Assembly: GCA_030390025.1 (NCBI GenBank)
Contig: JASTWF010000415.1
Location: 62,001 to 126,000, forward strand
DNA: 64,000 nt
Source of the DNA: Squalus acanthias
Taxonomy: Eukaryota
Direction: 5' to 3'
The position numbers and the translations under genes are program-made. This document shows positions 21,666 through 61,115 of this stretch, one piece after another. Each line of letters opens with the position of its first letter. The stretch's first letter is position 1. The notes beneath the pieces were generated by a model. The model had not been told where the DNA came from, made no database searches, and saw only the letters and a list, made by a program, of their open reading frames with translations.

Positions 21666-21699
21666 TTTTCTAAACAGATAAGCTGGCATTGAAAGTTGG

Positions 21700-25030: not shown

Positions 25031-25743
25031 GAACATAAGAACATAAGAAATAGGAGCAGGAGTAGGCCATTTGGCCCTTCGAGCCTGCTCCACCATTCAA
25101 TAAGGTCCTGCTGATGTTCTACCTCAACTCCACCTTCCCACACTATCCCCATACCCCTCGATTCCCTTAGTATCCAAATATTTATCAATCTCAGTCTTGA
25201 ATATACTCAAGGATTGAGCATCCACAGCCCTCTGGGGTAGAGAATTCCAAAGATTCACAACCCTTTGAGTGAAGATACTTCTCCTCATCTCAGTCCTAAA
25301 TGGCCTACCACTTATTCTGAGATTGTGACCCCTGGTTCTAGACTCCCCTGCCAGGGGAAGCATCCTCCCATTATCTACCGTCAAGCTCCTTAAGAATTTT
25401 ATACATTTCAATAAGATCACCTCTCATTCTTCTAAACCTAGGGAATATAGGCCTAGTCTACTCAATCTCTCCTCTTAGGACAATCCCCCCAACCCAGGAA
25501 TCAGTCTAGCGAACCTTTGTTGCACTCCCTCTAAGGCAAGTCTAGGTAAAAAGACCAAAACTGTACACAGTACTCCAGGTGTTTTCTCCCCAAGGCCCTA
25601 TATAATTGCAGTAAGACTTCTTTACTCTTATACTTCAATCCTTTTGTAATAAAGGCTAACCTATTATTTACTTTCCTAATTGCTTGCTGTACCTGCATGT
25701 TAACTTTCTGTGATTTGTGTACAAGGACACCCATGTCCCTCTG
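25031..25743 (-). mobile_element. CR1 3' fragment
   Basis: QVQQAIRKVN..KSKEVLLQLYRAL..HLEYCVQFW, ESRTRGHNLRI..FTQRVVNLWNSLP; (TTCTTATG)n tail. Confidence 0.88.
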
Positions 25744-27538: not shown

Positions 27539-27722
27539 CAATTAATAATTGCACAATGTTTGAACCGGCATACTTCTTCACATCTTCTATCCACCGTGGC
27601 ACAGATTCAAAAGATCCCCTTTTGCTAATGTCATAAGCAATAATCGCACCATTAGCACTTCGATAATAACTCTGTGTAATTGTCCTAAATCGTTCTTGCC
27701 CAGCCGTGTCCCATATCTGCAA
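27539..27722 (-). CDS. RAB43: Rab-43, coding exon 2
   Basis: Acceptor ttccAG (27724-27723); [32 protein letters not shown]...NIVQLLI(G); donor G|GTAGG at 27538. 184 bp, phase 0/1. Confidence 0.96.
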
Positions 27723-29185: not shown

Positions 29186-29209
29186 TATATATATATATAT
29201 ATATATATA
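29186..29209. repeat. (TA)12 microsatellite
   Basis: Direct reading. Confidence 0.95.
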
Positions 29210-29435
29210 GTTGATTGATTCCACACTAACACTTTAATATACACCTTATTCAATAAAAAACAATATTATGTAATGTGATAGATGGCCAACTTCCTCTTCT
29301 CTGCTTGAGATGAGGCGTCAAAAATGTATCTGTTCTTGCCACTTTGGGTGTTTTACAGTATGATGAAACCACATGCTATTTCCTCTCCGGAGACAACAGC
29401 TTAAAGTGGCACAAAGAAGTGAGAGAAGAAATTTA

Positions 29436-30262
29436 CATACATACGAACATACGAATTAGGAGCTGGAGTAGGCCACTCGGCCCTTCGAGCCTGCTCCGCC
29501 ATTCAATAAGATCATGGCTGATCCGATTACTCCACATTCCCGCCTACCCCCGATAACTTTTCATCCCCTTGCTTACCAAGAATTTATCTACCTCTGCCTT
29601 AAAAATATTCAAAGACTCTGCTACCTATCTTTGTGTCATCAGCAAATTTCGCAACCATACCGTCGGTCCCTTCATCCAAGTCATTTATATAAATTGTAAA
29701 AAGTTGAGGCCCCAGCACTGATCCCTGTGGCACACCACTCGTTACATCTTGCCAATCAGGAAATTACCCATTTATGCCTACTCTCTGTTTCCTGTTAGCT
29801 AGCCAATCTTCTATCCATGCCAATATGTTACCCCCTACACCATGAGCTTTTATTTTCCGCAATAACCTTTGATGTGGCACCTTATCAAATGCCTGCTGGA
29901 AATCTAAGTACAGTACATCCACCAGTTCACCTTTATCCACAGCACGTGTTACTTCCTCAAAGAAATTGGTTAAACATGATTTCCCTTGCACAAAACCATG
30001 TTGACTGCCTGATTACTTTGAACTTTTCTAAGTGCCCTGCTATAACGTCTTTAATAATAGCTTCTAACATCTTCCCTATGACAGATGTTAAGCTAACTGG
30101 CCTGTAGTTTCCTGCTTTCTGTCTCCCTCCCTTTTTTCCAATCTAATGGAACCTTCCCCGAATCTAGGGGATTTTGGAAAATTAAAACCAACGCATCAAC
30201 TATCTCACTAGCCACTTCTTTTAAGACCATAGGATGAAGTCCATCAGGACCTGGGGACTTGA
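29436..30262 (-). mobile_element. Internally deleted CR1 LINE
   Basis: GKSCLTN..FFEEVT..VDVLYLDFQQAFDKVPHQRL RT motif plus a CR1 tail. Confidence 0.88.
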
Positions 30263-30649
30263 AATTTACTTTGCCAACACTTCAGTCAAAGTCCAATATG
30301 ACTCATCCTTGACTGCCCGGTTTGCAACACGTTGTTACAATAATACTGGATTTTAAAGAGTCTATTTAACAAGCCAAGTTGCGTGTGTTGGTGCAAAAAA
30401 TTTTTTTAGAAAAAAGTGCAATTGGATTCCTCCTGCCAGCTCGGGGCAACATTAAAATAATAATAATACAAAAACCCTGTTCCAAGCCAGGATTGGAATA
30501 TGGTTCAGGAATAACACTGTAATCCGGCAACTGGAAATGAACGGTCGGCGCTGGAACACTATCATCCGGCTAGAGCAAAAGAGGCTTCAAAATGAAAGCC
30601 TGGTTGAAAGGATAAAGTGGGTGTTGATGGGATTGTGCTGGGGGTGGGA

Positions 30650-31220
30650 GCTGCGCACTTACCTTCACCCGCTTGCCTTGGATCTCCACCGTTTTCATGG
30701 TAAAGTCCACCCCGATCGTGCTGCCTTGTCTCTCCACGAAAATCCCCGACTTGAAGCGCTGGACGACGCAAGTTTTGCCAACGCCGGCGTCTCCGATCAG
30801 AACTATTTTGAACAGAAAGTCGTAAGACTCGTCCGGATCCACAGGCCCCGACATCATTTAGAAGATTTTTCTCCCCAAGTCACGGGCAGTTTCAATCGAA
30901 GGCTCTTGGGCTCATGAACGGCCGGCACCAACTGATTCCCCACCTCCCCAAAAAATAATTATTAAAAAATCCCCGCAAACTTGGGGACATGACGTGGATG
31001 CGAAACCCCGGAACTGACAACGCGGAAGAAATGTGAGAGCGAGAGAGGAGAGATCGGCTGCAAGGCCCCCGCTGGCCGCCTGCCGCAGCGCCTGAGCGCA
31101 ATAACATGCAACCGATAGGGCGCTTTCACACAGCTGGCCCCTGCGCGCCTTCAGGACCCATTGCCGAGCGCCAGCCGCACATGGCTGCCAATGCACAGCT
31201 TCAGCGTTCGGAAACGTGCT
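30650..31220 (-). promoter_or_regulatory. CpG-island-like promoter / 5' UTR of RAB43
   Basis: Locally high GC and CpG density over exon 1 and about 350 bp upstream, in an otherwise CpG-poor window. Confidence 0.7.
30663..30857 (-). CDS. RAB43: Ras-related protein Rab-43, coding exon 1
   Basis: [29 protein letters not shown]...[20 protein letters not shown] (65 codons; P-loop and switch I); donor AAG|GTAAGT at 30662-30661; lies in a CpG-rich region. Confidence 0.95.
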
Positions 31221-31897: not shown

Positions 31898-32544
31898 CTG
31901 TTCGACTATTTTTGTTGCAATTTCTCTCACATTAAGATGCACACAGATGGACTTGCAGGATCGTAGCTCACTCAGTTTTGAAACAGATCCCGTTTTGGGT
32001 AATTTTGGAGCTTTCTTTGCACAAAAGGAGTTCAAGGTTGAACTTCTCTCAGATTCCCCATGATGGTTATGATCTGCTCTGGTTTATGATGTCACCTGCA
32101 TCCTGTGATTAGATTGCACGCTCTTAATGTACTCCCAAATATCCAATATTAAACTTCTTAACATATGTAACAACATATAATGAATATTTTAAATAAGAAG
32201 AAAAACACTGCAAATGCTGGAAATATAAACAGAAAATCCTGAAAATACTCAGCCAGCCACAGTCTGTCAGTGAATAATTTGCTCTGTATAAAGGAGAATC
32301 CTGTAACACTACAACACCAAACTGTTGTACTGTTCTACAACAAGTGTCACCCTTGGCTCATTGGTAGCACTCCCTCAGTACTGCACTGTTGGAGGATGAG
32401 ACATTAAACCGAGGTCCCGTCTGCCCTCCCAGGCGGACGTAAAAGATCCCATGGCAGTATTGTGAAGAAGAGCAGGGGGTTTGTCACTGGTGTCCAATGT
32501 TCCTGCTAAGCTGCGCGGCCGGGCAGCTGTCTGGAGGTCCCACC

Positions 32545-33110
32545 AGGGATTCCCAGGTGTCGGTGGGGATGTTGCACTTTTTCAAGGAGGCTTTGAGGGT
32601 GTCCTTGAAGCGTTTCCTCTGCCCACCTATGGCTCTCTTGCCGTGTCGGAGCTCCGAGTAGAGCGCTTGTTTTGGGAGTCTCGTATTGGGCATGTGGACG
32701 ATGTGACCCGTCCATCGGAGCTGATCGAGCGTGGTCAAAGCTTCGATGCTGGGGATGTTGGCCTGAGCGAGAACACTGATGTTGGTGCGCCTATCCTGCC
32801 AATGGATTTGCAGGATCTTGAGGAGGCAGCGTTGGTGGTACCTCTCCAGCATTTTGAGGTGCCTGCTGTACATGGTCCATGTCTCTGAGGCATACAGGAT
32901 GGCGGGTATCACTACTACTCTGTAGACCACAAGCTTGGTGCTGGGTTTGAGGTCCTGGTCTTCAAACACTCTCTTCCTCAGGCGACCAAAGGCTGCACTA
33001 GCACACTGAAGGCGGTGTTGGACTTCGTCATCGACATCTGCCCTTGTTGGCAGTAGGCTCCCGAGGTATGGAAAATGGTCCACGTTGTCCAAGGCCTTGT
33101 CGTGGATTTT
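32545..33110 (-). mobile_element. RTE-clade LINE, C-terminal ORF fragment
   Basis: VDHFPYLGS..ASAAFGRLRKRVF..LYASETWT..RWTGHIVHMP..RLPKQALYSEL..GGQRKRFKDTLK. Confidence 0.9.
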
Positions 33111-33969
33111 GATAGACTAAGTAAGTGGGCAGTAAGGTGGCAGATGGAGTATAATGTAGGGAAATGTGAGGTTATTCACTTTGGTAGGAAGAATAGAAAA
33201 ATAGAATATTTTTTAAATGGTAAGAAACTTTCAAATGTTGATGTTCAGAGAGATTTGGGTGTCCTCGTGCAAGAAACACAGAAAGCTAGCATGCAGGTAC
33301 AGCAAGCAATGAGGAAGGCAAATGGCATGTTGGCCTTTATTGCAAGGGGGTTGGAGTATAAGAGTAAGGAAGTCTTGCTACAATTGTACAGGGCCTTGGT
33401 TAGACCACACCTGGAGTACTGTGCACAGTTTTGGTCTCCTTATCTAAGGAAGGATATACTTGCCTTGGAGGCGGTGCAACGAAGGTTCACTAGATTGATT
33501 CCTGGGATGAGAGGGCTGTCCTATGATGAGAGATTGTGTAGAATGGGCCTATACTCACTGGAGTTTGGAAGAATGAGAGGTGATTTCATTGAAACATACA
33601 AGATTCTGAAGGGGATTGACAGGGTAGATGCTGAGAGGTTGTTTCCCCTGGCTGGAGAGTCTAGAACTAGGGGGCATAGTCTCAGGATAAGGGGTAGGCC
33701 ATTTAAGACCGGAGATGAGGAGGAATTTCTTCACTCAGAGGGTTGTGAATCTTTGGAATTCTCTGCCCCAAAGGGCTGTGAATGCTGAGTCTTTGAGTAT
33801 ATTCAAGGCTGAGATAGATAGATTTTTGGACTCTAGGGGAATCAAGGGATATGGAGATCGGGCGGGAAAGTGGAGTTGAGGCCGATGATCAGCCATGATC
33901 TTATTGAATGCCGGAGCAGGCTTGAGGGGCCGTATGGCCTACTCCAGCTCTTATTTCTTATGTTCTTAT
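33111..33969 (+). mobile_element. CR1 LINE 3' part
   Basis: WQMEYNVGKCEVIHFG..RDLGVLV..KANGMLAFI..LVRPHLEYCAQFWSP; TTCTTATG tail. Confidence 0.92.
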
Positions 33970-35279: not shown

Positions 35280-38200
35280 CTTGCGAACAAGGCCCTTACC
35301 ATCCATAAGCTTATCATGGATGATTGCATCGACATCATGGCCCTTTTGGAAACTTGGTTGAGGGGTGATGACACCTTACCCTTAAATGAATCCTCCCCGC
35401 CTGGCAATACCTTCAACCACTTGCCCCGCCCAGACCGCCGTGGTGGTGGTGTGGCTCTCATCACCAAATCACACCTTGGTCTGTCCCCCATATTCCTCCA
35501 GCACTTTCTCCTCCTTTGAGCATTTTACCTTATTCCACCCCTCTCACCTCTCATTTAAAATTCTTGTTCTCTACTGGCCACCCAAGTACTATAAAAAATT
35601 TATTACCGAGATATCTTCACTGCTCTCCTCCCTCAGCCTCTGCACCGAACGACTTCTCATCCTCGGTGATTTCAACCTCCATCTCAATTCATCATGCTCT
35701 CTCTCCTCTGAGTTCACTAGCCTCCTATCCTCCCTTAATCTCTCCCTCCATGTAAAGTCCCCAACTCATATTCACGGCCACCCCCTCAACCTTGCTATCT
35801 CTCGTGGCCTCGCTACTCCCATCATGTCAATCGCAGATAAGGCCATCTCTGACCACTTCCTTGTATCACTCTCCGCCCACATCCCCCTTCCACCCCACCC
35901 ACAACCCTACTCTCTCCCATCTCTCTTACAACTGCACTTATGAAATTCCAACTGTCCAGCCTTTGGCCCTCCATTCACCATGACATTTCTGCAGCTACCG
36001 ATCTGCTCAACCACACCCTCACCACCACCTTTGATGCCCTAGTCCCTATTAAAACAATTACTCTCTCTCACCCTGGCCGCTCCCCCCAGTACGGCTCTCA
36101 TCTTCGCTCCCTTAAGTCCAAGGGACGCAGACTTGAACGGATATGGTGGACAACTGGTTTAGCCATTCACCGCCAGATCTGGCTGGACCACATAAAGCAT
36201 TGTCAGGTCCTGCTCTCGTCTGCCAAAATTGCTCACTATTCCAGAATCATTCTGGAATGTAAAGATAAACCCCAGCTCCTATTCTCTACTGCTAACCGTC
36301 TTCTTAAACCCCTCTCCCCTGTCTCCTCCACCCTCACCTCCGACAACAAGTATGAGGAGCTCATGGACCTCTTTGTCTCTAAGATTGAGACCATCCGTTC
36401 AGCTGCCTCTGCCACTTCCCTTCCTTCCCCTAGCCCACCGGGCCAAACTTCCTCTAAGGTTCCCCCCTGCCCTAGCCCTGAACTCGCATCTTTCTCCAGT
36501 TTCTCTCCGATCTCCCCTCATGACCTCTCTGCGCTCATCTTGTCCATGAGACCCACTTCCTGCTTCCTCGACCCTATTCCCACCAAACTGCTGACCACCC
36601 AACTTCCTTTTCTGGCTCCCATGTTAGCTGACATTGTTAATGGTTCTCTCTCCTCAGGTACTGTCCCCCTCTCCCTCAAATCTGCCGTCATCACCCCTCT
36701 CCTCAAAAAAACAACCCTTGATCCCTCCGTCCTTGCAAACTACCGCCCCATCTCCAACCTCCCTTTCCTCTCCAAAGTCCTTGAACGTGTTGTCGCCTCC
36801 CAAATCCGTGTCCATCTTTCCCGCAATTCCATGTTTGAATCCCTCCAATCAGGTTTCCACTCTTGCCACAGTACCGAAACGGCTCTCATCAAAGTCACAA
36901 ATGGCATTGGTCTATTGCTGGCGGGACTCATGTCTGTATCCTGCCCAGCATTAAGCAAATCACCGACAGGATCAACATCTGTGCATAAGTGTGAATTTAA
37001 ATCCCATCCTGCTGCTCTTCTGGCGGCAGATTGTGGCCATTGGAATTTCAGGGCCTTCGAACCCTTGGAAACGGTGCCTTTTAGCAGAGGGACAATTTAA
37101 ATGTTGCAGAATTCAGGCTTCTGGAGTGTTCCAGACCAGTTCCACTGCTCTATACTACTTGACACCAGTGTTTTTCTGGCATCCAGTATGATCAGCAGTG
37201 AGGAAATGCGGTGGATGATGCCATCCCCACTGGCTCTACTTACCTTTTGATTTCCAGGGCTCCAGGGACAGATGGAAATTCTGCCCATAGTTGCCCCCAG
37301 GAAACTTGCAGTGTCAGACGTAAGGGGTGGAGACATGTTGTTACTGGTACCTGTGCTACTTTCTGCCCCTCCTCCATGCTTGGAGCACCAGACCTCTGTC
37401 CAAGGAAATTTGGGGCCAGTGTATTTATTGCAAGTTGATCATGGACACACATTCTGTTGATATCATTTTAAATAATATTTGTACCTTCCATGTTACATTT
37501 TGAAGTTAGTTTTAAAAGGCAAACAGTATTGTGCAGCTGATCTACTTGTCTCCAGTTCTTAAATCACAAGCACATCGACTTGAGATATGGGTCTGCATGT
37601 TACTAATCAGATGGATTTGACGCAGTTGTGAAAAAATGAAGCCATTTTGTCAATGACGTATCAGTGTAATTCTTTCAGTCATGGTATGTATGGTGTTAAA
37701 AACCATTCTGATTCTCAGAAATGTCTCAGCTTGTTTTGAAACAGTAACCCCAAAATATAACTGATTTTTGTGTGATTACTGTCTTGTTAGGTGTCCATGG
37801 TTGAGTTGTATATGGCAGTAACTTTAAAGACTTTAGTAAGAAGGTCCAGTCAATAGTTTTAAGGCTATTTTCTTTTTTTTTCTGCTTGCCCTTAGATTGT
37901 CATGAGCCTTTGTGCCAATTAGTGTAGTTTTTTGCCCTTGCCACCAACTGGCACCAAATGGGGAACATAATGGAGGGTTGTCAGGCAGGTCAGGCTGCAC
38001 GAGAGTTGTTCTGTGTCTACCCACCAGTAGCCACAAACCCACATCTCACTTTGACAGGTGATTAGTGCATGCAGAAGTTTATAACCCCAAAACAGGCTGT
38101 GAAAAGCAGACTCAGTGGCACCACTATTGCATGTGAATGCTGGACCAACTGTAATGTTGGGTTCTTCGTCAGAAGCACCTCAATCATAGTGTGCCATGTT

Positions 38201-43346: not shown

Positions 43347-44102
43347 TCAATGTAACTTGATTTTAATGTTATGCTTTGAGTGCAATGTACTTAATACCTG
43401 TGGCAAAATCTCCATACTTTCACAGGGAAAGGGTTTCTCTATCAAGATGTCACTTGTCCATTCAATACTTGACTCAAGTTCTGCCATCTCCCAAATCCTC
43501 TCATCTTGTATGCACCTGATTGGACTTTGTTTTATTAAAGGGGTGAGTTCAAATTCATTAAAACCAATATTTGGAGTAAATATGTATGGTATTGATTTGA
43601 CACAGGTGAGAGAATACATTATTAGAATGAAAAGAAGCAGATAGAGAAGACAAAGAGCAATACTTCCAAAGTATAAGTCTTGACATCGGTATTGGTTATG
43701 GGACCGACAATTTGAATATTCATTTCCTCTTAGTTCTGCCACAGGCGTTATTCTAGGAGTGAAACAGGTCACATTAGGATGAACCATTGCTGGTGGATTC
43801 TGCAGCCACTGTTTGAGGTATGCGATATGGCAATCACAGTTCCAGACATTGTTGTGGAGGCTAATAGTCCGCAGGCTCTGCAATTTGTCAAAAGTACCTG
43901 GAGCAACTGTAGTTAGTAAGTTGTTGTGCAGATAAAGCTCTGTTGTAGTTTCTGGAATAAATGGTATTTCCTGTAGGCCTCTGAAGCTGCAGTTAATTGC
44001 CATACCCTGAGAAGTAGATTTACATTTGCAGGATTCTGGGCATAGTTCAGCATTGGAAGACCTCAAGAGAAAGAGCATGGCTAAACCTGGAGAAACCATC
44101 AT
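43347..44102 (-). CDS. Platelet glycoprotein IX-like LRR membrane protein, long cytoplasmic tail (251 aa, single coding exon)
   Basis: Signal peptide; LRRNT CPESCKC..C; LRR ELYLHNNLLTTVAPGTFDKLQSLRTISL; LRRCT WNCDCHIAYLKQWL..C..C; TM about aa 146-168; tail about 83 aa. Acceptor ttattttcAG (44105-44104) 1 nt before the ATG. Confidence 0.88.
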   Translation of the reverse strand: MMVSPGLAMLFLLRSSNAELCPESCKCKSTSQGMAINCSFRGLQEIPFIPETTTELYLHNNLLTTVAPGTFDKLQSLRTISLHNNVWNCDCHIAYLKQWLQNPPAMVHPNVTCFTPRITPVAELRGNEYSNCRSHNQYRCQDLYFGSIALCLLYLLLFILIMYSLTCVKSIPYIFTPNIGFNEFELTPLIKQSPIRCIQDERIWEMAELESSIEWTSDILIEKPFPCESMEILPQVLSTLHSKHNIKIKLH

Positions 44103-44279
44103 CCTGAAAATAAGTTAATAAAAGACAAAGAATAAGATCAGTAAATAATATATATATATAAAACATTCTCTATATGTTTGTGTATGTGTATGTAGAACAA
44201 CTTTGTTACATGACAAATTATCAAAAACATGTGAACTCTTTGGACTCACTTTGTTCTGATCTCCTGCAGAATAGACTAA

Positions 44280-44990
44280 GGGGGGAAAATTGGGTTGCTT
44301 TGCGCCTCCCGTTAGCGCTCTAAGAGGGCGCTAACGGGGCGCAAAGTAACTAGCGCCCAGGCACGGCGCCACCCACGCCTCCCGCAAAATTCAGCGGGAG
44401 GTTAGCGGCGGCGCTAACCGGTAGCGCCCCACGGCGCTGCGCCACCAGCGATGACATCATCGCCGTGCACAGCGCCCCGCTCGCGCCCCGACCGCAATCT
44501 TCGGGAGCGCCCCCTGACTTACGGCCGGAAGCTACGTCCGACGGGGTCAGGGGGGCCTACCTGCGGCCGGGGAGGCGCAATTTAAAGGCGAGGTGCGGGG
44601 CGGCCATTTTTGTTGCTGGCCACCTGCCAGCACCTGCCTGCGCTCCCGTCCCCAACCTCCAGAAACGCCCCCCCACCGCGAAGTGCCGGCTGCGCTCCAA
44701 GAGCCCGGCACTTCTCTTGAGAGCCGGGCTCTTTTGCCAGCACTCCCGATCCCCGGAGGCCTAGCTGGGCCCCGGGTCGCGCTGCGCAAGGCCCCTCCTC
44801 TTTAAGAAGGGGAGGAAGGCCTGCAATACCGCGGCACATAACGCCTCGATATTAACTCGCAGCGCCCCAAGAGGGATGCGGGGTGCTTCCAGTAGCGCCC
44901 CGCTTCTCTCTTGGGGCGCAACCACCGAAGTTCCGGCGCGGGGGCGCTAATTTTTCTGGGACTCTTGGGGCGCTACTCAATTTTTAGCCC
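44280..44990. mobile_element. GC-rich Harbinger-type MITE with TAA target-site duplication
   Basis: TAA at 44277-44279 and 44991-44993; imperfect TIRs ggggggaaaattggg / ctcaatttttagccc; many agcgccc/gggcgct subterminal repeats; CpGs largely retained. Confidence 0.8.
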
Positions 44991-47437
44991 TAAATGTCTA
45001 ATCTACTGTCTATTTGAAGATAAAGTAAATCAAAGTTAATGTTAATCACATAGTAGAGCTCTATGGTAAGTATATTTATAAAAAATTAAATGCAGTTCTT
45101 TGACTCAGATTTTTTAGTTTGGAAGCGACAATTGTAGACGGCTAGAACTGGTTCAGACATTAAGTAGACTACTGTATGCCAGCCGCAGCCATCAGCTAGG
45201 TATCCCCTATGATATTTTGGGCATAAAGGTCAAGAAATTGTGTCGCGCAGAACCCATTTTTCAGGTGAGAAACAGGCGCTGAGGAGTCTAATATGGTGTG
45301 TGTTGTGCACGCGCTCATCCCACACCAGGTATTTGCCGCAAGCCATAAAGGTTAGGGTGCCCTGTAGTCATCCAGGGCGCCCGCCTGAAACAGGAGCTAG
45401 ATCTATTGCCTATGAAAATTGGGGGCTTACCGCTTATTTCAGGCCCCGTTCCAATATTGGTTCGCACGCATGTTGCAAACAGTTTTTTCAGGCGGACAGC
45501 AGCCAAACCAGCGGTCTTTAAAGGAATCGCAGGAGGCTGCCACCAAAAACGTAAGTAAGATTTTTTTTCCTAACCTCCCGTTTGCTCTGCTGTTTTTCTT
45601 AAAGGATGATGGCAGCCACAATAGGTGAAAATGTCATTTTGCTATTCTCTTATTGGTTTTGCAGAATTAGGCAGTCTGTTTTATGGCATCTCTGATATCA
45701 GCTTATAGCCAACGGATGTGTAGGTCACTTTAGTATTTGGAGAATGCAGTGTGGCTGCAATTAATTTCAACCCTAACTATCTTGTAATCTTGTGGATCGT
45801 TCTGGGTAGATGAACAAAGATGGCATGAATGGCCTTCCTCATCTGTAATTATTTTGCGAATTGGACCTCTCTAACCCTTAATTGCTGTTCACGCAATATT
45901 TTAGGGAAACCATTGTTGCTGTTCTAGACGTGTGTTGAAAACTGGGAATCACTGTCCATACCAAACGACAATATCACTGTATGTGGCATTGGTTTCCCCA
46001 AATGGTAAGCTGCCAGAAAATTCTAACACCTGAGAGGTTGCAACTGCTCATCTCTAACCATAAGCCAGACTTTAGCAATGTCCTTTGTTCCTTGGTACCC
46101 TGCCCTATTTTCCCCTTCTCAACTCAAGGGAGACTAATTGTTGTTCCCTCCCACCACCCCCACAGAGATCAACTAACTCAGTACAAACTGGATTAAATGT
46201 GGGACTTCCCGCTCTGTAGAGGCTAGCTTGCTTGATAAATTTGCTGAGTCACGGAGCGAACAGTCAGCATTTTCTGAATGCGCAAGGGTGAAGACAGGCA
46301 CATTTTCAATTCCGAGAGACCAGTAAACCGTTAACTTTTCCAACAACTGACATCTAAAATTCTGAAAAAGCCAATACTTGACAGAAGGCCATTGCTTCCT
46401 TTGCCTTCCTCTGTCTCCAAACTATTTGGTGTCAACCATCAAAATTTGGTCCCAATTCAGAGCGATGTTTTAAATTTCCTTCTGAATCTCCCATGGCATC
46501 GTTGACAGTGAGTTGGAAGTTACGCTGTTGCAAGTGGCTTGCTACGATGAGAAATTGGCAGAGGGGTGCACATCTCTACTGAAAGGATTTGGAAAGAGGT
46601 TTGCAAGTGCTCTGCTCAGACACAGCAGAGTAGCCTGAAAATTTTGCTTCCCACTCTAGTTAGATCAATAAATACATTTGTTGTCCTCATATACCACACT
46701 TACTTAAATAAATAAAACGGAATGTCTCACAGGGTGGAGAGCAGCTCTTTACCTAACATATAAAATTGATACTCTGTTCCATCTGTTTGGAATAAGGGTT
46801 TTTATAATGAGTCAAGAAACATGAAACTTCAGAAAGATTAAACTAATTTCATCTTTCCTTCTCTGTAACACATTTTAGTTCTCTACATGCTCCTGCTTAA
46901 ATAAACATACAGTATTTAAATTTAGGATTTTTATTCATAACTTCCCTGCAAAGTTGAACTTGTTGCCAATATTATTATTTTTTCTGATTGTTTTGAGTAA
47001 ATAGAAGCAATAAAATGTACATAAGTAAAAGCAATGCAGCTATTAGAACCGTTTAGAATAAAAATTAAACCATATCAAATTTCAAAACAGAAAGTTTGAC
47101 TGGTCACACATGATGGCCCCAAAATCCCATTCCATTTTTGTCATTTCTGGAGCATTCAATCGGAGCAATTTATTTCTCTGGATGGCAAATTGGGGTGGAA
47201 TTTGTGTCCGTGCTTTTCCTGTCCCAAGAATGATGCAATCGAATCTCCAACTACAATTTAGCCCTTTCCACGATCCACCCACTGAGCCCCCATGCTGCTG
47301 ATTTTAATATATGTAAATGAGGGTCAGTGGCATCGGAGCTCTGCATTTCTGGAACATACGCTCGCAATACACTGGGGATATGTTAGATTGGGAAATATAA
47401 GCCAGGACAGCCAAGACTGACAGAAGTGAGAAACTTT

Positions 47438-48019
47438 GGGGTCGATTTTAACCTGTTCGAATTGGCGTTAAAGAGGTGCTCATGGCCTCAAAATGGGGTC
47501 GGAAGACTTACCACCCTGTTAACGCCAAAGCCATTTTTAACGGGCAACGTGCCCACCAGTTTCAGGCATTTGGCCCTTTTAATATGCAAATAAGAGTCCT
47601 ATCACATACATTGCTATTTTGTGAGACAACTGGGCATAGTGCGCACCGAGCACGCTCTGACCAGTATTACGGGCCGTACAGCCGAAGAGAACCTAAATAA
47701 GGTCAGTTTGAAACTATTTTTGTAAGGCCTGGAGGAGCAGGAGTGCTCCACTGGGCCTCGCAGAATAATCTGGGTCACTCCCGCCTCTCCACAGTCATGA
47801 ATGACCCCGCCCCCCCAACCACCAGACTTGCCTTGCTGCCGATGGAGCAGCCTCTGGCCCACCCAATATTGCGCAGTCCTGAATCCGCCGAGCTGCATCA
47901 AGACACCTGTTTGGGGCGGGCAGCTCACTGGTTCCCAGCTAAATGAGGCCCAGGGCCTCCAAATGGCTCCGGCCTCTTCACAGCCAATGTTTAGCCGCCT
48001 GAAAGTTAAAATCTACCCC
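47438..48019. mobile_element. Harbinger-type MITE
   Basis: 15-bp TIRs ggggtcgattttaac / gttaaaatctacccc (1 mismatch). Confidence 0.8.
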
Positions 48020-50596
48020 AAATTTGATCCTGAAAACTCCTGCAAATTTGAGTACTAATTACTGCAGCTTGGAACAAGTTTTCCCAGTGATTCTTTTTTG
48101 GCTTTGAGCCTGGACATTGTGTGTTTAGAAGGGGTGGGACGTGGGGGGGGAGGGGGGGGGGGGAGCGGTGGCTAAATATCCTGATGGTTTCCCTGTCCCA
48201 CAGGCTTTTGACTGCCTGTGGGACTGTGAAACTACTAGGAAATTTAGATCCCGTTCCCTCAAGAGCAGGTATGGGATTCCCAATGGACATGCCTTTCTAT
48301 GCCATTATCAAATAAAGGACGAATCGTTCAATCAGTACCAATCCTAGAACATCACAACACATAGGAATTCTTTGCTCTACATGACCATACCAATAATAAT
48401 CACTTGCTTGAATATGTCAGCACAAAATAAGTGCATCTTTTCCTATATGAATCCATGAATAACAAAGCACGGCATGTGTACAACTAACTCCAAAGTGAAC
48501 AGAGGCCAACTTCCTCTTTCCTCACACTGAGTTTCCCCTGGATGACTTAATGTGCCCTTCTTCCTCCCATTCCCGTGCTTCTCCCAATATGAGGACCTGG
48601 TGTTGCCTCCTATGTGCCACTGGCATGGATCTCTGATGGAGAAGGCCAAATGCCTGGCATGTGCTGTCGTCCTGAGAAATGACACCTTTAGGCAGGCATA
48701 TTTCAGCTGCCACCACTCCACTGGGCCTTGGATTTGCGTCTCCAATGATCAGCAAGATGGCTGGATTAGGCAGCTATAAGAATCTGAGAGCCCTGAGAAA
48801 TAGAAGCATGCATTTCAGTCCACCAGGTCCGAAAACCAGTATTCAGGGTGCTGTCTATTCTATACCAGAGGTACAGAGGTACAGGAGGAGGTGGTACTAA
48901 TTGGTCCCTGTCCCCTTCTTAGGTGGAGGTCTGCTGCAGATTCCAATCAAGCGGTCCCCTGCTGTATTGATATTTTTGGAACAAAGAAAAAGCTCTCTTG
49001 ATGTGGGTTGTGGACTCCTGAGACACACCTGTCAGATGCTGCACATCCTTGCAGACTGACCTCAGAGACTGTAAATAGGTGTGATGTTCCTCAAACATCC
49101 TTCTTTTCAAGCGAGTGCCCATGAGGTCTGGATCCCACAACTCTAGAGCCATGGGCTGCCTTCGCCTCTTTTGGGAAGGTGGCATATCCTCATCCACTCT
49201 TACGGTTCCCTCGTACTCATTAACACTATCGATTTGCCCCTTGGTGAAAATATCTGAGGTAGTGAGTGGGAGTGATGAAGTAAGTGATGTTGTGGGTAAG
49301 ATTGTGACAGAGGAACATGCCAGCGAGCTGCCTATTGCTCCTCGCAGTTCTCCGTCTTTATGAAAATGAGGCTCAAGCAAAAATATTGAGGGCGCCTCGA
49401 GCCTCACCATTCAGACACAGGGATCGATCCCTGCATTCCACGTTCATCCAGAAATAGGCACGCCCGAATTTCTAAGCCACAGTTTTCTATCAGTTCAACA
49501 TACTCATTCTTATTTATCTTCAGTAAATAAATACATTGCATCTCATAGCTTAGACGAACTATAATAGCCAGCTAATGTCAGTCCAACATCAAATTAAAGA
49601 TTCTCACTTGAACCTATATTAGAACAATGCTAGTCCATAAATGACAGTCCCAAAAGTACTATTTATAGGTGAGATTTTCTTCATAGCCCAAACATCAGAC
49701 AGTTAATACACCTACCTTTATATCTTATATAAACTTGCAAAGTTGTCAAATGATTTTCCTGCATACTTCGCAAGTAAGAGAGCTACGTCTCCCCAGCAGC
49801 TGGAACCTGGTTCTTAGTGATACGTTCAGATCAGCACAAAGCAGTAGATTCAATTAGTTGCCGTCAGTTATACGTCTACGTGACCAGTTCCAAATAGCTA
49901 CGGCTTGTTTCAAACAGGCAGAAGCGTGACAAACATTTTAATCTCCAATATGATCAGGCAGCTGCAGTAATCTGACTTGCGGTTAGGCTGAAGCTATACC
50001 ATGTGATGGAGAGGAAACCTAATGTTTATGGAAGATAAGAGTTCCTTGACGAATACATTTAACCACCGCCTAGCTTTTAAGAAATGTCTTGAATCCCTAG
50101 TACATTGTATTATTAGGGTTACAACATTAAAGCTACAATCTTTTTGTATTTCTGCCAATTTTGTTAAAAAAAAAAAATTAATTGGTGTGTACACTACAAA
50201 GTATGAGGTGGCCAAGTGTACTGCTTATATGGTATTAAGTACACACAAGAGTTGTTGTATGGAAGTTTAAAAAAAAATTACAGCAAGAGGCACAAAGCTA
50301 TGATGACTTTGATGCAGGAACAGATAGGCACAGTATTCATTGGCTGATGTGCTGCAGCTAACTAATGAACCATTTCACCGAGAAACCTGCTTTTAAAATC
50401 AACATATTGTTACTTATTCCAAACACTTTTTACAAACATTTCTCTTTTTTCCCCCTCTATTTTCTCCCTCTCAAGTTAATCCCTGCCCACACATTATCCT
50501 GTGCAGTTGGAAGGGCTACATACACAGTTAATCACATTTAATTTTGAAGATGCTATCCATAAGGCTCCTTGGTTGATCTGTCAGTGGGAGTTCTTA

Positions 50597-51857
50597 GGGC
50601 TGAATTTTGCCGGCGCTCAGAGGGCGGGTTCAGAGGCGGGTCCGCTGTCAAAATAGCAAAGATTGACAGCGGGTAGGGAACCCGCTGTCAACCCGCCTCC
50701 ACGCGAGTCCCCCAGGTGTCGGGTCTGTCGGTGCTGAACAGACCCGACACCAAGCGGCGGGGAAGGTAATTCACATCATTAAATGGGTTGTTAACATCCA
50801 ATTAACTGTTATTTTAAGCCTACATTTCAATTTTACGTGCTCCCCCACGGGAGACCCGCTGCTCGGGGAACACATCAGCTCAGCATGTCGTGAGTGGATT
50901 CAGCATTGAATTATCTCATGACCTGACAGCTGCCAAAGTTGTATAAAAGATCCCATGTTACAGCTGTTCACTTTCAAAGCTCAGAAACTGTTGGATACTG
51001 CATTTGGAAGACATATTGAGCTTTCTGCAGCTTGCAAGTGTTTGGAGCCAACTCTCTATCCAGTGCCACGTCATTGGAACATTGGTTAAACCACCCAAGT
51101 GCCTACCCTTATGTGTTGTTAGTTGGTATGCTTGCAGTAGGATGAGGGTGAGTGTGAGAGGTGGTTAGTGAAATGGGGAAGTGATAATGTAGATAGAGAG
51201 GGATGGGTGGAGTTGCAAGGTAAGTTGGTGTGAGTAAAGATGTGCAGGAGTAGGGTAGGGAAGGCAGAGTGATAGGGATGTGATGAGTGGCACAGCAGGA
51301 TGAGGTTGAGTGTGGCTTGGCAGTAACGTTTCGTGATCTACTGAGATCATTAAAAGGCTTGCGTCACTGCAGCCAGGTCCTCCTAACGACATCCCTGCTT
51401 GTGCCCTCCTGTGCAATGTGCAACCAGGCTGCGTTGATCTCCTGGGGAGGTCTCTTCATATGGAGGGAGTCATGGGAGAGCCTGAGTGCAGCCGTGCATC
51501 TTTGTGCAGTGCTTGTCAGTGTTTACAGCTCCTCAATGTTGTAGAACACTGACAGCAGAACTGTCAAAATCAATTTGGACATGGCCCCTTTAAGGAAACC
51601 AAATGACGTCATCAGACCAGCTTCCTATTAATTAGCTGGGAACCTCGCAGGGCGGGTTTAACAAGCGTAAAATTTTAATGTAAAATCACTTGGAAAGTGC
51701 AGGCTGCAGTAGGTAGTGGGTTGGGACCGCAACACCGAACCCGGCCGCTCCGGACCCGCCTCGGTCAGCGAAATCGCAGCCTTAGATTTGTGGTCAAGAA
51801 TCCTCTCATAGCAGTTTTCCCTCCTTCTTTCAGACCACTTCTGGCAAAAATCGCCCT
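50597..51857. mobile_element. Non-autonomous Harbinger derivative with a Myb-like ORF remnant
   Basis: TIR-like gggctgaattttgcc / ggcaaaaatcgccct; minus strand at about 51330-51420 reads SRDVVRRTWLQ*RKPFNDL (SANT recognition-helix region). Confidence 0.7.
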
Positions 51858-52060
51858 CTACAAGATGTGCAAGTACAATGTGAGTCAAAATTAAGATTGC
51901 AGTCTTGGAATTCCTTTCAAGAGTGTTTACATTTTTGGGATTGTCAGCCTGTCCAATTTTGTTTATATAGATGTGATGATCAGATTATTAAGGATGATTC
52001 AGACAAATCTACAATGGCTGGAACACAATAACATACAGCCTGCAAAAAACAAATGCAATA

Positions 52061-52675
52061 CAACAACAACAACTTGTATTTATATAGCGCCTTTAATGTA
52101 GTAAAACGTCCCAAAACATCCTAAGACAAAAAATTTGATATAAGGAGAAATTAGGGCAGGTGACCAAAAGCTTGGTCAAAGAGGTAGGTTTTAAGGAGCG
52201 TCTTAAAGGAGGAAAGAGAGGTAGTGAGGCGGAGAGGTTTAGGCAGGGAATTCCAGAGTTTAGGGCCGAGGCAACAGAAGGCATGGCCACCAATGGTTGA
52301 GCGATTTTAATCAGGGATGCTCAAGAGGGCAGAATTAGAGGAGCGCAGATATCTCGGGGAGTTGTGGGCCTGGAGGAGATTACAGAGATAGGGAGGGGTG
52401 AGGCCATGGAGGGATTTGAAAACAAGGATGAGAATTTTGAAATTGAGGCGTTGCTTAACCGGGAGCCAATGTAGGTCAGCGAGCACAGGGGTGATGGATG
52501 AACGGGACTTGGTGTGAGTTAGGACACGGGCAGCCGAGTTTTGGATGACCTCAAGTTTACGTAGGGTAAACCGTGGGAGGCCGGCAAGGAGTGCATTGGA
52601 ATAGTCAAGTCTAGAGGTAACAAAGGCATGGATGAGTGTTTCAGCAGCGGATGAGCTGAGACAAGGGCGGAGACA
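52061..52675 (-). mobile_element. L2 LINE 3' end with (CAA)n tail
   Basis: Closely similar to the reverse complement of 61548-61981, extending further 5'. Confidence 0.9.
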
Positions 52676-52679
52676 ATAA

Positions 52680-53230
52680 GGGGGGATTTTAACTTCTACT
52701 GCCCAGCAGAGTTAAATTTGAGTTGGTCGACTTATCGCCTCTTTCCCGCTCCGCCATTCTTCCTGGGGGCCTTTCACTGGACAGCCCAGGCACTCGCCTG
52801 AATCAGCCAGGTGTCTCATGAATCTATGTAAATTGGGGGCCTATGATGCACATAGGACCTAGATGCAATTTTAATGGCCTACTGGGCAGCTTGTGCGTCG
52901 TGGATGCTCCACTCTCGGTAAAATCTTGTGAGCAAGAAGAGCCCCGGAAATGTATGTGTTGAAATTATTTTGGTGGGGCCCGGAGGAGTAGGATTGCTGA
53001 TCCGGGCTCCGGGAGAATAACATGGGCCACTGAGAGACGCCCCAGCCCCCATTTCTGCGATTGCACACCTGTCCTCGGACCTACATGTTCGCCTAATATT
53101 GCACCAGTCCAGAGCTACAGCGGGACACCCATTCGAGGCGAGGAGCTGCTTGGTGCATGCTAATGAGGCCCGGCCCTCAAACTGGGCCAGGGCTCGCGCT
53201 GCGCAGCTGCACAATAGTTAAAATCCCTCC
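52680..53230. mobile_element. Harbinger-type MITE
   Basis: TIRs ggggggattttaac / gttaaaatccctcc. Confidence 0.7.
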
Positions 53231-53605
53231 TAGAATGCTTTGAACATGTATGTAATTCACACAAGTGGCTAGGATGTGGTAAAGCTTCCTGAAGACTTAA
53301 TAACACTGGAGTAAAGATTCCGCTGTGCTGCTCGGTGGTGTGTGCTGCACACTCCCGGGCAACAATTTTACATCCGTTAAAGTTAGTGGAGAGAAAATCA
53401 TGGGCTGGGAGTGCGCAATTTAGTGAAATACATTCCCAGCACGAACCAAGGAGAGACGCAGTGAAAGTTTTGCTTTTGCATTGCAACACATCATGTGGTG
53501 AACTTTGATTTAGTGCTCTCGGTGCAGTCCTTTGAGTGACGGAGTACTTATTGAGAATTCAGGCAGCATTCTTTTAAAACTCGTTCAGGCTTTGTTAGAT
53601 ATACT

Positions 53606-54274
53606 GGGATAGAAATTGGTCCTCATTGTGCTCATTTTACGGGCGTAAAATAGCCGCAAAACGGACCAATGTTGGGCTCAACGTCCTGTGCCCAATCTGC
53701 GCTAGGGGTACAGATGCCGTCACAGACATAGGCGACTGCCCAGGCGGCTGTGGCGCCCACCGGAAACAGGCATTAGGCCCCTTGTGTGTGTGAATGAGGG
53801 GCCTTATGCCTGTTAGAGGAATCCTGCAGGAAATTGGGCAGCGCTGAGCAGAGAAGGAGCTGGGCCTACTCTGCGCAGGTTTCCACAGCGATTGCTGCGG
53901 CCTAAGCAGCAGCCACCACCAAAAAGGTAAGTTTGTTCTTCTTTTAAACCTCCCTGTGGAGCTGGCAAGAGCCGGAGTGCTTCTCTAGGCTTCACAGCAC
54001 TCCTTAGGGCCGCTGCCTGCCCGCAATCGCCCCCCTCTTGTTCGCCTTCCCCTCCCTGGGACTTATGTGAGGGTCGCTTCCGCCGAGGTAGATAGTAATT
54101 GGGCAGGCTGCCTGTGGACATGCAATAGGAGCCGGCAGCTCGGCCCTATTACTACAATGAAGCCTGAGGCCCAATTTCTGGCGAGCCTTGGATCTGTTGG
54201 TTCAGGCACGTACTGTGCTGGAAGCTCACCATCAGTTATGCGCCTGAAAACGGACCATAACAAACTTCTACCTC
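53606..54274. mobile_element. Harbinger-type MITE with 3-bp TSD (ACT)
   Basis: ACT at 53603-53605 and 54275-54277; imperfect TIRs gggatagaaatt / aacttctacctc. Confidence 0.7.
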
Positions 54275-54423
54275 ACTGAGTGCAGTAAATTTAATGAACC
54301 CATTTACAGTATTGTTACATAACAATCCTTCCCCAAGTGACAACATGAACCATCATTATCTTATTGTTCAACTAAAAATGAGAATAACAGAGCATGAAAC
54401 AATCCTATGCGGTTTTTGCATCC

Positions 54424-54477
54424 TTTATTTACAAATAACAGGAATTCAGGAAATTCTGGTATTATAAAACATTTATT
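54424..54477 (-). terminator. Candidate polyadenylation signals of the short-tail GP9-like gene
   Basis: Two minus-strand AATAAA (plus-strand tttatt at 54424-54429 and 54472-54477), about 0.9 kb past the stop codon. Confidence 0.4.
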
Positions 54478-55367
54478 TCTTCACACAGTTGTAATAGTAT
54501 TGCATTTTTCTAGCAACATGAAAAGCACAGCAAGGTTATAGTTTGTTATTATAAATAAAAACTGCAGATGAAACATGTTAACTTGTTTTTCAAATTCTGA
54601 TAATTGACAGTAGAAATTTACAATCATTTTTGTAGATACTATATAGGAAAAAAAAGCTGAATATTTCTTTGACACTCATTATTTTCCTTCTTTTCAGCCC
54701 TGCTCTGCCACATACTAAGGTGCAGGCAACCAACTTCAAGCTGTATTGAAGATAATGAGTGTGAATGTATGTTGTACCACTGCAGTTTGTGGGCACATTT
54801 TTAAATAGCACGATGTGTTTTGATACAGAGGAAAAATGATGACGGAGAAAGAATATGATTTGGGTTGCTGAAATGATGAGAGGCTTGATTTTGCAGCTAT
54901 AAGCCGATTATTTAATGTAGATTGTGATCACAGAACTGGAGGGCCGGAGTATGAGATTGCAGAGTAATAGGTATCTGGAATAGTCTCCCAGCAAAAGCAA
55001 TTAATATTGTGTCAATTAACTACTTGTTAGTCATGCTGTCAGGCAGAGGCTTAAAAAGAGGGGGAGAAAATCTAAAAATATACTGGAGGTAATTTTGACT
55101 TTGTGGGATAGCGTAATACGGGTGATAGCAAATCGGCAGCCCGTTTTACATCTCTCCCGATTTTTATTTCCATTGACTTCAAAATTACTCCCTCCCCCAT
55201 TATTACAAAAACACTCCAACCGTTTAATAGTCAAAAGACTAGTACTGAGGCACTTTAATGTAGGGGAGCCCTTCTGTAGTAATGCTGCTTTACTGAGCAT
55301 ATTAGGGAGAACACTGATGGGAATGCACTGTTAGTCAAATTGAGAAAATACTTTCTCAAAGTATTTT

Positions 55368-55964
55368 CTATTGGCTTTTTAATCTTCTTCTGGGGCTTTC
55401 TGGCAGAAAGTAAGAATCTGCCATAAAAACCCAGCAGCTTAAGTGCTTTGCAATGTAAACTGTGCACACCAACAAAATAAGAACAAGCAAAGATGCAGCA
55501 AACAGCCAAATATCTCTGTGAATAAATGGTTTACATTGCATCGATTCATGGCTCTCACAGGCAGGATACTCATTCCCTGTCAGGCTCAATATCTGTTTGC
55601 CATTAATTAAAACAGGGGTTGAACAAAGAACTGATGGATTAGAGTCGAGTTGTTGGTCTTCTAGCCAGTGTTTGAGATATCCAATATGGCAATCGCAGTT
55701 CCATGGGTTGCTGGAGAGGTCTATCTTCCTCAGGTTCTGAAGCTTGTCAAATGTGCCTGGAGCAACTGTGGTTAAATGGTTGTTCTGTAGGTAAAGTTCA
55801 ATTGTGTTTTCAGGGAGAACAGGAACTTCCTTCAGTTGCTTTGCGCTGCAGTCAACTTTGAAGCCCTGGTCATTGAATTTTGTGCATTGGCAGGATACTG
55901 GGCACAACTCGACACTTGGCAAATTGAGCAAGAAAAATAATGCTAACCCACCAGAGGCCAACAT
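55368..55964 (-). CDS. GP9: Platelet glycoprotein IX (GPIX/CD42a)-like, short tail (198 aa, single coding exon)
   Basis: Signal peptide, LRRNT-LRR-LRRCT, NPWNCDCHIGYLKHWLED (compare GPIX NPWHCDC..YLRLWLED), LTG motif, TM about aa 152-172, tail about 26 aa. Acceptor tttatcacAG (55972-55971) 6 nt before the ATG. RAB43 is the neighbouring gene of human GP9. Confidence 0.85.
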   Translation of the reverse strand: MLASGGLALFFLLNLPSVELCPVSCQCTKFNDQGFKVDCSAKQLKEVPVLPENTIELYLQNNHLTTVAPGTFDKLQNLRKIDLSSNPWNCDCHIGYLKHWLEDQQLDSNPSVLCSTPVLINGKQILSLTGNEYPACESHESMQCKPFIHRDIWLFAASLLVLILLVCTVYIAKHLSCWVFMADSYFLPESPRRRLKSQ

Positions 55965-60134: not shown

Positions 60135-61115
60135 CAGGAGTTCCTCAGGGCAATGTCCTCGGCCCAACCATCTTTAGCTGCTTCATCAATGACCTTCCCT
60201 CCATCATAAGGTCAGAAGTGGGGATGTTCGCTGATGATTGCACAGTGTTCAGTTCCATTTGCATTTCCTCAGATAATAAAGCAGTCCGTGCCTGCATGCA
60301 ACAAGACCTGGACAACATCTAGGCTTAGGCTGATAAGTGGCAAGTAATATTTGTGCCACACAGGTGCCAGGCAATGACCATCTCCAACAAGAGAGCGTCT
60401 AACCACCGCCCCTTGACATTCAATGGCATTACGATTGTTGAATCCCCCACCATCAACATCCTAGGGGTCACCATTGACCAGAAACATAACTGGACCAGCC
60501 ACATAAATACTGTGGCTACAAGAGCAGGTCAGAGGCTGGGTATTCTGCGGCAAGTGACTCACCTTCTGACTCCCCAAAGCCTTTCCACCATCTACAAGGC
60601 ACAAGTCAAGAGTGTGATGGAATACTCTCCACTTGCCTGGATGAGTGCAGCTCCAACAACACTCAAGAAGCTCGACACCATCCAAGACAAACCAGTCCAC
60701 TTGATCGGCACCCCATCTACCACTTTAAACATGCAATCCTTCCACCACTGACACAAAGTGGCTGCAGTGTGCACCATCTACAAGATGCACTGCAGCAACT
60801 CGCCAAGGCTTCTTTGACAACAAATCGCAGCCCAAACACGCAACCTCTACCACCTAGAAGGACAAGGGCACCAGGCGCATGGGAACACCACCACCTTCAA
60901 GTTTACCCTTCAAGTTACACACCATCCTGACTTGGAAGTAGATCGCCGTTCCTTCATCGTTACTGGGTCAATCCTGGAACTGCCTCCCTAACAGCATTGT
61001 GGGAGTACCTTCGCCACAGGGACTGCAGCAGTTCAAGAAGGTGGCTCACCACCACCTTCTCGAGGGCAATTAGGGATGGGCAATAAATGCTGGCCTTGCC
61101 GTGAATGAAAAAAAA
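60135..61115 (+). mobile_element. CR1-group LINE 3' part (same family as 9061-10135)
   Basis: GVPQGNVLGPTIFSCFINDLP..MFADD; ILGVTIDQKHNWTSHI; gggcaataaatgctggcc..gaatgaaaaaaaa tail. Confidence 0.9.

What the first reader, a model, noticed from the sequence alone, without database searches (positions are those of the whole stretch)
43683..55535. Both GPIX-like proteins have a ninth, GPIb-beta-style juxtamembrane cysteine
Seen: each ectodomain has 9 Cys (long-tail: C21,25,27,38,89,91,113,132,140; short-tail: C21,25,27,39,90,92,114,136,144). The extra Cys (codons 43683-43685 and 55533-55535) sits exactly 8 residues after the last LRRCT Cys, shortly before the TM. Established: human GPIX has 8 paired ectodomain Cys and binds non-covalently, whereas GPIb-beta uses a ninth juxtamembrane Cys to form a disulfide with GPIb-alpha. 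Inference: these GP9-locus proteins may be covalently linked to GPIb-alpha or to each other, resembling a state before GPIX and GPIb-beta specialised.
Basis: partly seen in the sequence, partly recalled or inferred. Interest (0 to 1): 0.7.

Follow-up and report, generated by a model that had tools for sequence, protein, structure and literature searches.

The report
Ancestral GPIX cysteine lost in mammals
Both shark copies of the clotting-cell receptor subunit GPIX carry an extra cysteine just outside the membrane, which nearly all sampled fish, frogs, lizards and birds share but marsupials and humans lack, so it likely links GPIX into the receptor by a disulfide bond outside mammals.

Summary
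Observation confirmed exactly: both minus-strand ORFs have nine ectodomain cysteines, the last one 8 residues after the final LRRCT cysteine. Both proteins are GPIX (GP9) family, not GPIb-beta, and a RAB43 gene lies next to them. The cysteine is not a shark relic: 151 of 156 non-mammalian GP9-like sequences have it (sharks, bony fishes, coelacanth, lungfish, frogs, squamates, birds); 0 of 6 marsupials and human GPIX do not. It is the old jawed-vertebrate state, lost in therian mammals. It has no obvious partner in its own chain and sits where the membrane helix starts, so an interchain disulfide within GPIb-IX is likely (0.55) but untested. Two further leads emerged. (1) The tandem pair represents two old paralog lineages: human GP9 resembles the short-tail one, while all 89 teleost-type sequences are long-tail, so fish 'gp9' is probably a paralog of human GP9. 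(2) Putative cartilaginous-fish GPIb-alpha has one juxtamembrane cysteine, not two, suggesting that mammals moved a thiol from GPIX to GPIb-alpha. Shark GP1BB could not be checked. New variant of a known receptor; interest 0.45.

The parts
55368..55964 (-). Short-tail GP9 coding exon (P0002, 198 aa): signal peptide, LRRNT, LRR, LRRCT, TM, about 25-aa tail; same lineage as tetrapod GP9
55533..55535 (-). Ninth (juxtamembrane) Cys144 of the short protein, +8 after C136
   Evidence: +8 in 44 of 44 non-mammalian short-type sequences
55512..55514 (-). Asp151 at the TM start, aligned to human GPIX Asp135 (its role in assembly is recalled, not tested)
   Evidence: alignment
55449..55511 (-). Predicted TM helix of the short protein (about residues 152-172)
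   Evidence: hydropathy; model helix 145-184
43347..44102 (-). Long-tail GP9 paralog coding exon (P0001, 251 aa); same lineage as teleost 'gp9'
43683..43685 (-). Ninth (juxtamembrane) Cys140 of the long protein, +8 after C132
43599..43664 (-). Predicted TM helix of the long protein (about residues 147-168); Ser in place of the GPIX TM Asp
43350..43421 (-). Conserved C-terminal cytoplasmic motif of the long paralog (residues 228-251), shared with chimaera, sturgeon, gar, bowfin, coelacanth, lungfish and teleosts; function unknown
49712..49764 (-). Probable upstream coding exon of the long gene (adds 18 residues in frame if spliced to 44103)
   Evidence: tblastn of the Stegostoma isoform P0016; GT donor and AG acceptor read; splice not shown by RNA
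30663..30857 (-). First coding exon of a RAB43 gene, the neighbouring locus marker (further exons near 27.7 kb and 20.9 kb)
   Evidence: only Rab43 hits at E<=1e-22; that RAB43 neighbours human GP9 is recalled

Best explanation
The two genes are tandem GP9 (GPIX) paralogs whose extra cysteine is the old jawed-vertebrate state, missing in the therian mammals sampled, and it likely forms an interchain disulfide with another subunit of the GPIb-IX membrane bundle (GPIb-beta or GPIb-alpha). Shown: eight cysteines fit the LRRNT/LRRCT pattern and the ninth lies at the start of the predicted membrane helix, 29 residues before the first cytoplasmic basic residue. Inferred: during assembly in the ER the parallel TM helices of GPIb-alpha, two GPIb-beta and GPIX bring their outer ends together, as they do for the human alpha-beta bonds, and the ninth Cys is oxidised to a neighbour. 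With one Cys on the putative shark GPIb-alpha, one on each GPIb-beta (assumed) and one on GPIX, four thiols would give two bonds (alpha-beta plus beta-IX, or alpha-IX plus beta-beta). The bond would stabilise the complex rather than be needed to build it.
For: Conservation: 151 of 156 non-mammalian sequences carry the Cys, at exactly +8 in 44 of 44 short-type ones; only 2 state changes on the 55-row tree. No intrachain partner: in 3 sequences (one bird, two teleost-type) the 2nd and 4th LRRCT Cys are lost together while the ninth stays; in teleosts loss of an N-cap Cys and loss of the ninth do not go together. Position: model helix begins at residue 145; distance to the first inner basic residue is 25-30 in 13 GP9 proteins and 27 for the single Cys of three GPIb-alpha-like proteins. 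Precedent: human GPIb-alpha Cys484/Cys485 bond to GPIb-beta Cys122, and the four TM helices form a parallel bundle (passages of PMC4284388; PMC8976409). Fold matches GPIX in the GPIb-IX cryo-EM entry best.
Against: No bond was observed or modelled. Model confidence around the Cys is low (pLDDT 57-64 for residues 131-150). 5 of 89 teleost-type sequences lost the Cys, and 5 others lost the 4th LRRCT Cys while keeping the 2nd and the ninth, which suggests it can pair inside the chain. Human GP9, which lacks it, restores thrombocyte counts in zebrafish gp9 mutants when overexpressed (PMC9244818 section 13; the zebrafish sequence itself was not seen). The human alpha-beta bonds are reported as not required for assembly. 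Spacing in the long lineage varies (mostly 5-8). The GPIb-alpha assignment of P0140/P0157 is only moderate: best single end-to-end match is GPIb-alpha, but their tail found no PDB match, the Atlas gave LRRTM-type clusters and databases call them 'slit-like'. Shark GP1BB and expression in thrombocytes were not shown.
Confidence: 0.55

Rival explanations
1. The ninth Cys links GPIX chains to each other, as homodimers or as a short/long heterodimer that mimics the GPIb-beta/GPIX pair.
For: Both paralogs have the Cys in the same register in chondrichthyans (20 of 20 at +8); the long elasmobranch protein lacks the GPIX TM Asp and has a long signalling-type tail; only one Cys on the putative GPIb-alpha.
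Against: Birds and the teleost-type set yielded only one paralog yet keep the Cys, so a heterodimer cannot be general; spacing differs between paralogs in sturgeon and frogs.
Confidence: 0.15
2. The Cys stays a free thiol or acts as a small helix-capping residue; it is conserved for packing or redox sensing, not for a fixed bond.
For: Dispensable in mammals and in 5 of 89 teleost-type sequences; replaced by aromatic residues (Tyr in marsupials, Trp in human); human GP9 rescue in zebrafish.
Against: Near-invariance while the neighbouring residues vary freely; no other stray Cys in 16 ectodomains; unpaired extracellular thiols usually oxidise (general knowledge).
Confidence: 0.15
3. The Cys pairs inside the chain, exchanging with the 2nd/4th LRRCT cysteines.
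For: Five teleost-type sequences keep the 2nd LRRCT Cys and the ninth but lost the 4th.
Against: With nine Cys one thiol is still left over; co-loss of the 2nd and 4th with the ninth retained in 3 sequences.
Confidence: 0.1
4. One reading: these proteins are unspecialised GPIX/GPIb-beta intermediates, or one stands in for a missing GP1BB in sharks.
For: A coelacanth and a chimaera long-type record are named 'GPIb beta chain-like'; the long paralog has a cytoplasmic tail, as GPIb-beta does; shark GP1BB was not found among my hits.
Against: Both lineage profiles score human GPIX far higher than GPIb-beta (162.9 against 91.4 bits; 140 bits with GPIb-beta outside the 60 rows shown); zebrafish has both a long Gp9 and a separate GP1B in the tree of PMC9244818 Fig S5; my searches were not aimed at GP1BB.
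Confidence: 0.05

Closest known systems
Human GPIX (GP9; PDB 8WFS chains E/X)
   Same: Single-LRR ectodomain with eight aligned Cys, LTG motif before the last LRRCT Cys, TM Asp (short protein), best sequence and fold match
   Different: Human has Trp where the ninth Cys lies, an 8-residue tail against about 25 and 80 here, and one known gene against two tandem paralogs
Human GPIb-beta (GP1BB; PDB 3RFE, 8WFS chain c)
   Same: Same fold; one extra Cys just outside the membrane (Cys122) used for an interchain bond
   Different: Much lower similarity; spacing +6 (recalled) against +8; no GP1BB_C match seen; TM lacks the Gln/His pair of GPIb-beta (recalled); locus neighbour here is RAB43, not SEPT5 (SEPT5 link recalled)
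Teleost Gp9 (zebrafish Bernard-Soulier model, PMC9244818)
   Same: Long tail with the same C-terminal motif as the long window protein (78 of 89 teleost-type sequences) and the juxtamembrane Cys (84 of 89)
   Different: Cys usually at +5; first N-cap Cys mostly lost; no short-type partner among the sequences listed

Membership tests
GP9 / GPIX | Type I membrane protein with LRRNT, one LRR unit, LRRCT and eight conserved Cys | tested here: met
GP9 / GPIX | Closer to human GPIX than to GPIb-beta | tested here: met
GP9 / GPIX | Groups with mammalian GP9 in a tree (orthology) | tested here: inconclusive
   Short protein is on the marsupial side of a branch with 87/84 and 88/92 support, long protein on the other; a chondrichthyan-only duplication is not rejected (p-AU 0.377); no GP1BB outgroup
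GP9 / GPIX | Next to RAB43 | tested here: met
   RAB43 exons in the window; the human neighbourhood is recalled
GP9 / GPIX | No unpaired juxtamembrane Cys, non-covalent association (mammalian definition) | tested here: not met
   Ninth Cys present; one search shows that this feature defines only therian GPIX
GP9 / GPIX | Expressed in thrombocytes and assembled with GPIb-alpha and GPIb-beta | not testable with these tools
   No RNA holder on record; no complex model obtained
GP1BB / GPIb-beta | Unpaired juxtamembrane Cys | tested here: met
GP1BB / GPIb-beta | Best sequence match to GPIb-beta | tested here: not met
GP1BB / GPIb-beta | GP1BB_C (PF28456) TM/tail region | tested here: inconclusive
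   No hit, but the local Pfam copy may lack this model; nearest Atlas clusters are GPIX, one of them with 14% GP1BB_C
GP1BB / GPIb-beta | Disulfide to GPIb-alpha | not testable with these tools
   needs biochemistry

The most novel reading that the evidence does not exclude
GPIb-IX kept four juxtamembrane thiols but rewired them: ancestrally one on GPIb-alpha, one on each GPIb-beta and one on GPIX, making GPIX a covalent subunit in nucleated thrombocytes; therian mammals moved the fourth thiol from GPIX to a second Cys on GPIb-alpha, freeing GPIX. In parallel, GP9 was duplicated in early jawed vertebrates, mammals kept the short-tail copy and teleosts the long-tail copy with its own conserved cytoplasmic motif, so the zebrafish Bernard-Soulier gene is a paralog of human GP9.
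Probability: 0.25. Interest if true: 0.7.

Novelty: new variant of a known kind. Interest (0 to 1): 0.45.

Why it matters
The textbook rule that GPIX joins the von Willebrand receptor only non-covalently may hold for mammals alone. A covalent GPIX would change how force on GPIb-alpha's juxtamembrane region passes to the beta/IX ectodomains in thrombocytes, and its loss maps near the origin of platelets. It is directly testable: put Cys at human GPIX 127 with or without removing one GPIb-alpha Cys. The paralogy matters for the zebrafish model used to test patient GP9 variants, since fish Gp9 carries a Cys and a long conserved tail that human GPIX lacks. The sequences are public and the receptor is well known, which limits the surprise.

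Tried and rejected
No genome is held for this window, so GP1BB, SEPT5 and GP1BA of this species could not be checked; no GP1BB sequence appeared among the listed hits, which were not aimed at it. RNA: no RNA holder listed (19 runs, none on record as RNA), and no reads were laid, so expression and splicing are open. Attempts to display the human GPIb-beta alignment failed: its register is recalled. The tail of the GPIb-alpha-like protein gave no PDB match. An N-cap Cys as partner of the ninth was rejected: the two are lost independently in teleosts. Palmitoylation of the ninth Cys was rejected on topology (extracellular side; other Cys lie in or after the TM). Recent duplication or gene conversion between the two window genes: nucleotide identity 40-75% per 20 codons with no high-identity tract, and only a 71% match in blastn. 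A clade of teleost Gp9 with short-type GP9 was rejected (p-AU 0.0035 twice); a single tetrapod clade was not (0.082). Literature: 10 searches listed no paper on this Cys or on two GP9 paralogs; most Blood/JTH papers are outside the library and Luo 2007 (PMC1785083) was not held, so absence from print is not established. Earlier scan findings: none.

Full report
Observation. The window holds two minus-strand ORFs, 43347-44102 (251 aa, P0001) and 55368-55964 (198 aa, P0002), 46% identical over 186 aligned residues. Each ninth Cys is 8 residues after the last LRRCT Cys, before the hydrophobic core, and 29 residues before the first cytoplasmic basic residue.

What the genes are. The nearest named relatives are shark, ray and chimaera 'glycoprotein IX' records (88% for Heptranchias; 69% for Rhincodon). 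Against solved structures, human GPIX beats GPIb-beta for both proteins and for both lineage profiles. An AlphaFold2 model of P0002 (mean pLDDT 71, only 2 of 5 models above 70) matches the GPIX chains of the GPIb-IX cryo-EM entry first. RAB43 exons lie 13 kb downstream on the same strand; that RAB43 neighbours human GP9 is recalled. So these are GP9-family genes.

How far the cysteine reaches. I counted 162 GP9-like sequences. Left out: two records with aberrant ends (Naja P0132, Crocodylus P0162), one truncated chimaera model (P0078), and isoform or cluster duplicates. One search listed only its best 120 of 312 hits. An extra Cys within 13 residues after the last LRRCT position is present in 20 of 20 chondrichthyan, 9 of 9 sturgeon/bichir/gar/bowfin, 2 of 2 coelacanth/lungfish, 10 of 10 frog, 20 of 20 squamate, 6 of 6 bird and 84 of 89 teleost-type sequences, 151 of 156 in all, and in 0 of 6 marsupials. 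In 8 of the 151 the last LRRCT Cys itself is missing, and most teleosts lack the first N-cap Cys, so 'ninth' is positional there. 39 of the 89 teleost-type, 3 squamate and 1 skate-type record carry no source name and were grouped by similarity. Human GPIX has Trp127 at +8; marsupials have Tyr at +8 or +9. Tyr and Trp are each one base from Cys but two from each other, so two separate losses are possible (inference, alignment-dependent). Monotremes, turtles and intact crocodile sequences were not sampled; human is the only placental seen.

Two old paralogs. A 55-row tree of ectodomain plus TM splits a short-tail group of 26 (window short protein, other shark short forms, one sturgeon and one bichir form, frog GP9, squamates, birds, marsupials) from 29 long-type rows (window long protein, the other chondrichthyan, sturgeon and bichir forms, gar, bowfin, teleosts, coelacanth, lungfish, a second frog, snake and crocodile form), with support 87/84. 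With the linker columns and three poor rows dropped it is 88/92, and the bony-vertebrate short clade is 96/88. This is not decisive: a chondrichthyan-only duplication is not rejected (p-AU 0.377) and there is no GP1BB outgroup. Independent support is the shared tail motif, largely outside the tree's columns (6 of 8 chondrichthyan long, 4 of 5 basal ray-fin long, 2 of 2 lobe-fin fish, 78 of 89 teleost-type, 0 of 50 short-type; absent from the 8 tetrapod long-type rows counted), and the same short-then-long order in fused sturgeon gene models. Joining teleosts to the short group is rejected (p-AU 0.0035), and all 89 teleost-type sequences score higher on a long-type profile built without teleosts. 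Human GPIX scores 162.9 bits on the short profile, which includes marsupials, and 140 on the long. The zebrafish paper compared only zebrafish, mouse and human; its alignment is a picture whose letters I could not see, but its row numbers show zebrafish Gp9 running past residue 207 (PMC9244818 supplement passages).

How it likely works. Shown from sequence: eight Cys fit the N- and C-cap pattern and one is left over. In three sequences the 2nd and 4th LRRCT Cys vanish together while the extra Cys stays, and N-cap losses do not track it, so it has no regular intrachain partner; five teleost-type sequences that lost only the 4th are a counter-hint. In the model the long helix starts at residue 145, directly after C144, though confidence there is low. 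From papers: human GPIb-alpha Cys484 and Cys485 bond to GPIb-beta Cys122, these bonds are not required for assembly (PMC4284388 passages), the subunit ratio is 1:2:1, GPIX is non-covalent and the TM helices form a parallel four-helix bundle (PMC8976409 passages). Inferred: a GPIX Cys at the same height would be oxidised to a bundle neighbour.

Which neighbour. Among the profile hits were bamboo-shark and chimaera proteins named 'slit-like' (P0140, P0304-P0306, P0157, P0307) with 2 to 4 tandem LRR modules, a short Ser/Thr/Pro stalk, a TM and a tail motif that resembles the filamin site (resemblance recalled). One module aligns end to end with human GPIb-alpha as a single stretch (131-133 bits; other proteins score higher only by summing short pieces), but the tail has no PDB match and the Atlas did not name GPIb-alpha, so the assignment is probable, not shown. 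They have one Cys at the outer TM edge, 27 residues before the first inner basic residue. If right, the human wiring cannot apply, and alpha 1 + beta 1 + beta 1 + IX 1 gives the same four thiols as human alpha 2 + beta 1 + beta 1 + IX 0. This swap is my most novel reading; it rests on three genera and an unchecked shark GP1BB.

Against. No bond was observed. Overexpressed human GP9 restores thrombocyte counts in zebrafish gp9 mutants (PMC9244818 section 13), and 5 of 89 teleost-type sequences lack the Cys, so it is probably a stabiliser. Expression of either window gene was not shown.

Literature seen. PMC8976409 passages; PMC4284388 passages; PMC9244818 passages, section 13 and supplement passages; PMC6726462 passages, nothing relevant; PMC2793433, no GPIb terms; others as search listings only. 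Ten searches listed nothing on this Cys or the duplication, but the main GPIb-IX structure papers are outside the library and may show such alignments.

Verdict. Real feature, rightly noticed, wrongly framed as a primitive shark state. It is the general non-mammalian form of GPIX, a new variant of a known receptor with a cheap decisive test. Interchain disulfide within GPIb-IX 0.55; teleost gp9 as the long-tail paralog about 0.8; full thiol-swap story 0.25; interest 0.45.

Noticed in passing
P0140, P0304-P0306 (Chiloscyllium, Hemiscyllium), P0157, P0307 (Callorhinchus): Probable cartilaginous-fish GPIb-alpha, annotated 'slit-like', with 2-4 tandem copies of the ligand-binding LRR domain, a short stalk in place of the long mucin and a single juxtamembrane Cys. 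Repeat number may partly reflect assembly.
   Followed up: partly
window 43350-43421 (-): C-terminal cytoplasmic motif of the long paralog conserved from sharks to teleosts, coelacanth and lungfish, and absent from the tetrapod long-type copies counted; binding partner unknown.
   Followed up: partly
teleost-type sequences: All 89 are long-type; most have lost the first N-cap Cys, leaving three; zebrafish gp9 may be a paralog of human GP9.
   Followed up: partly
P0014/P0052 (Bombina), P0132/P0206 (Naja), P0162 (Crocodylus): Frogs and snakes carry both paralogs; the Naja and Crocodylus long-type models end aberrantly, which may be decay or bad annotation.
   Followed up: no
window 49712-49764 (-): Probable in-frame upstream coding exon of the long gene, matching a zebra-shark isoform.
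   Followed up: partly
window about 20800-30857 (-): RAB43 gene, three coding exons seen, on the same strand downstream of the two GP9 genes.
   Followed up: partly
P0001 residues 116-119 (about window 43746-43757): The long protein has a 3-residue deletion in the LRRCT loop relative to other shark long forms (C3-C4 spacing 19 against 22), also seen in one frog (Spea); two N-glycosylation sequons, none in the short protein.
   Followed up: no
window 9267-9929, 11129-12814, 13535-14014, 32484-33788, 35386-37100, 60374-60751: ORFs that read like LINE/CR1 reverse-transcriptase fragments and a Harbinger-type nuclease (recognised from memory, not searched).
   Followed up: no
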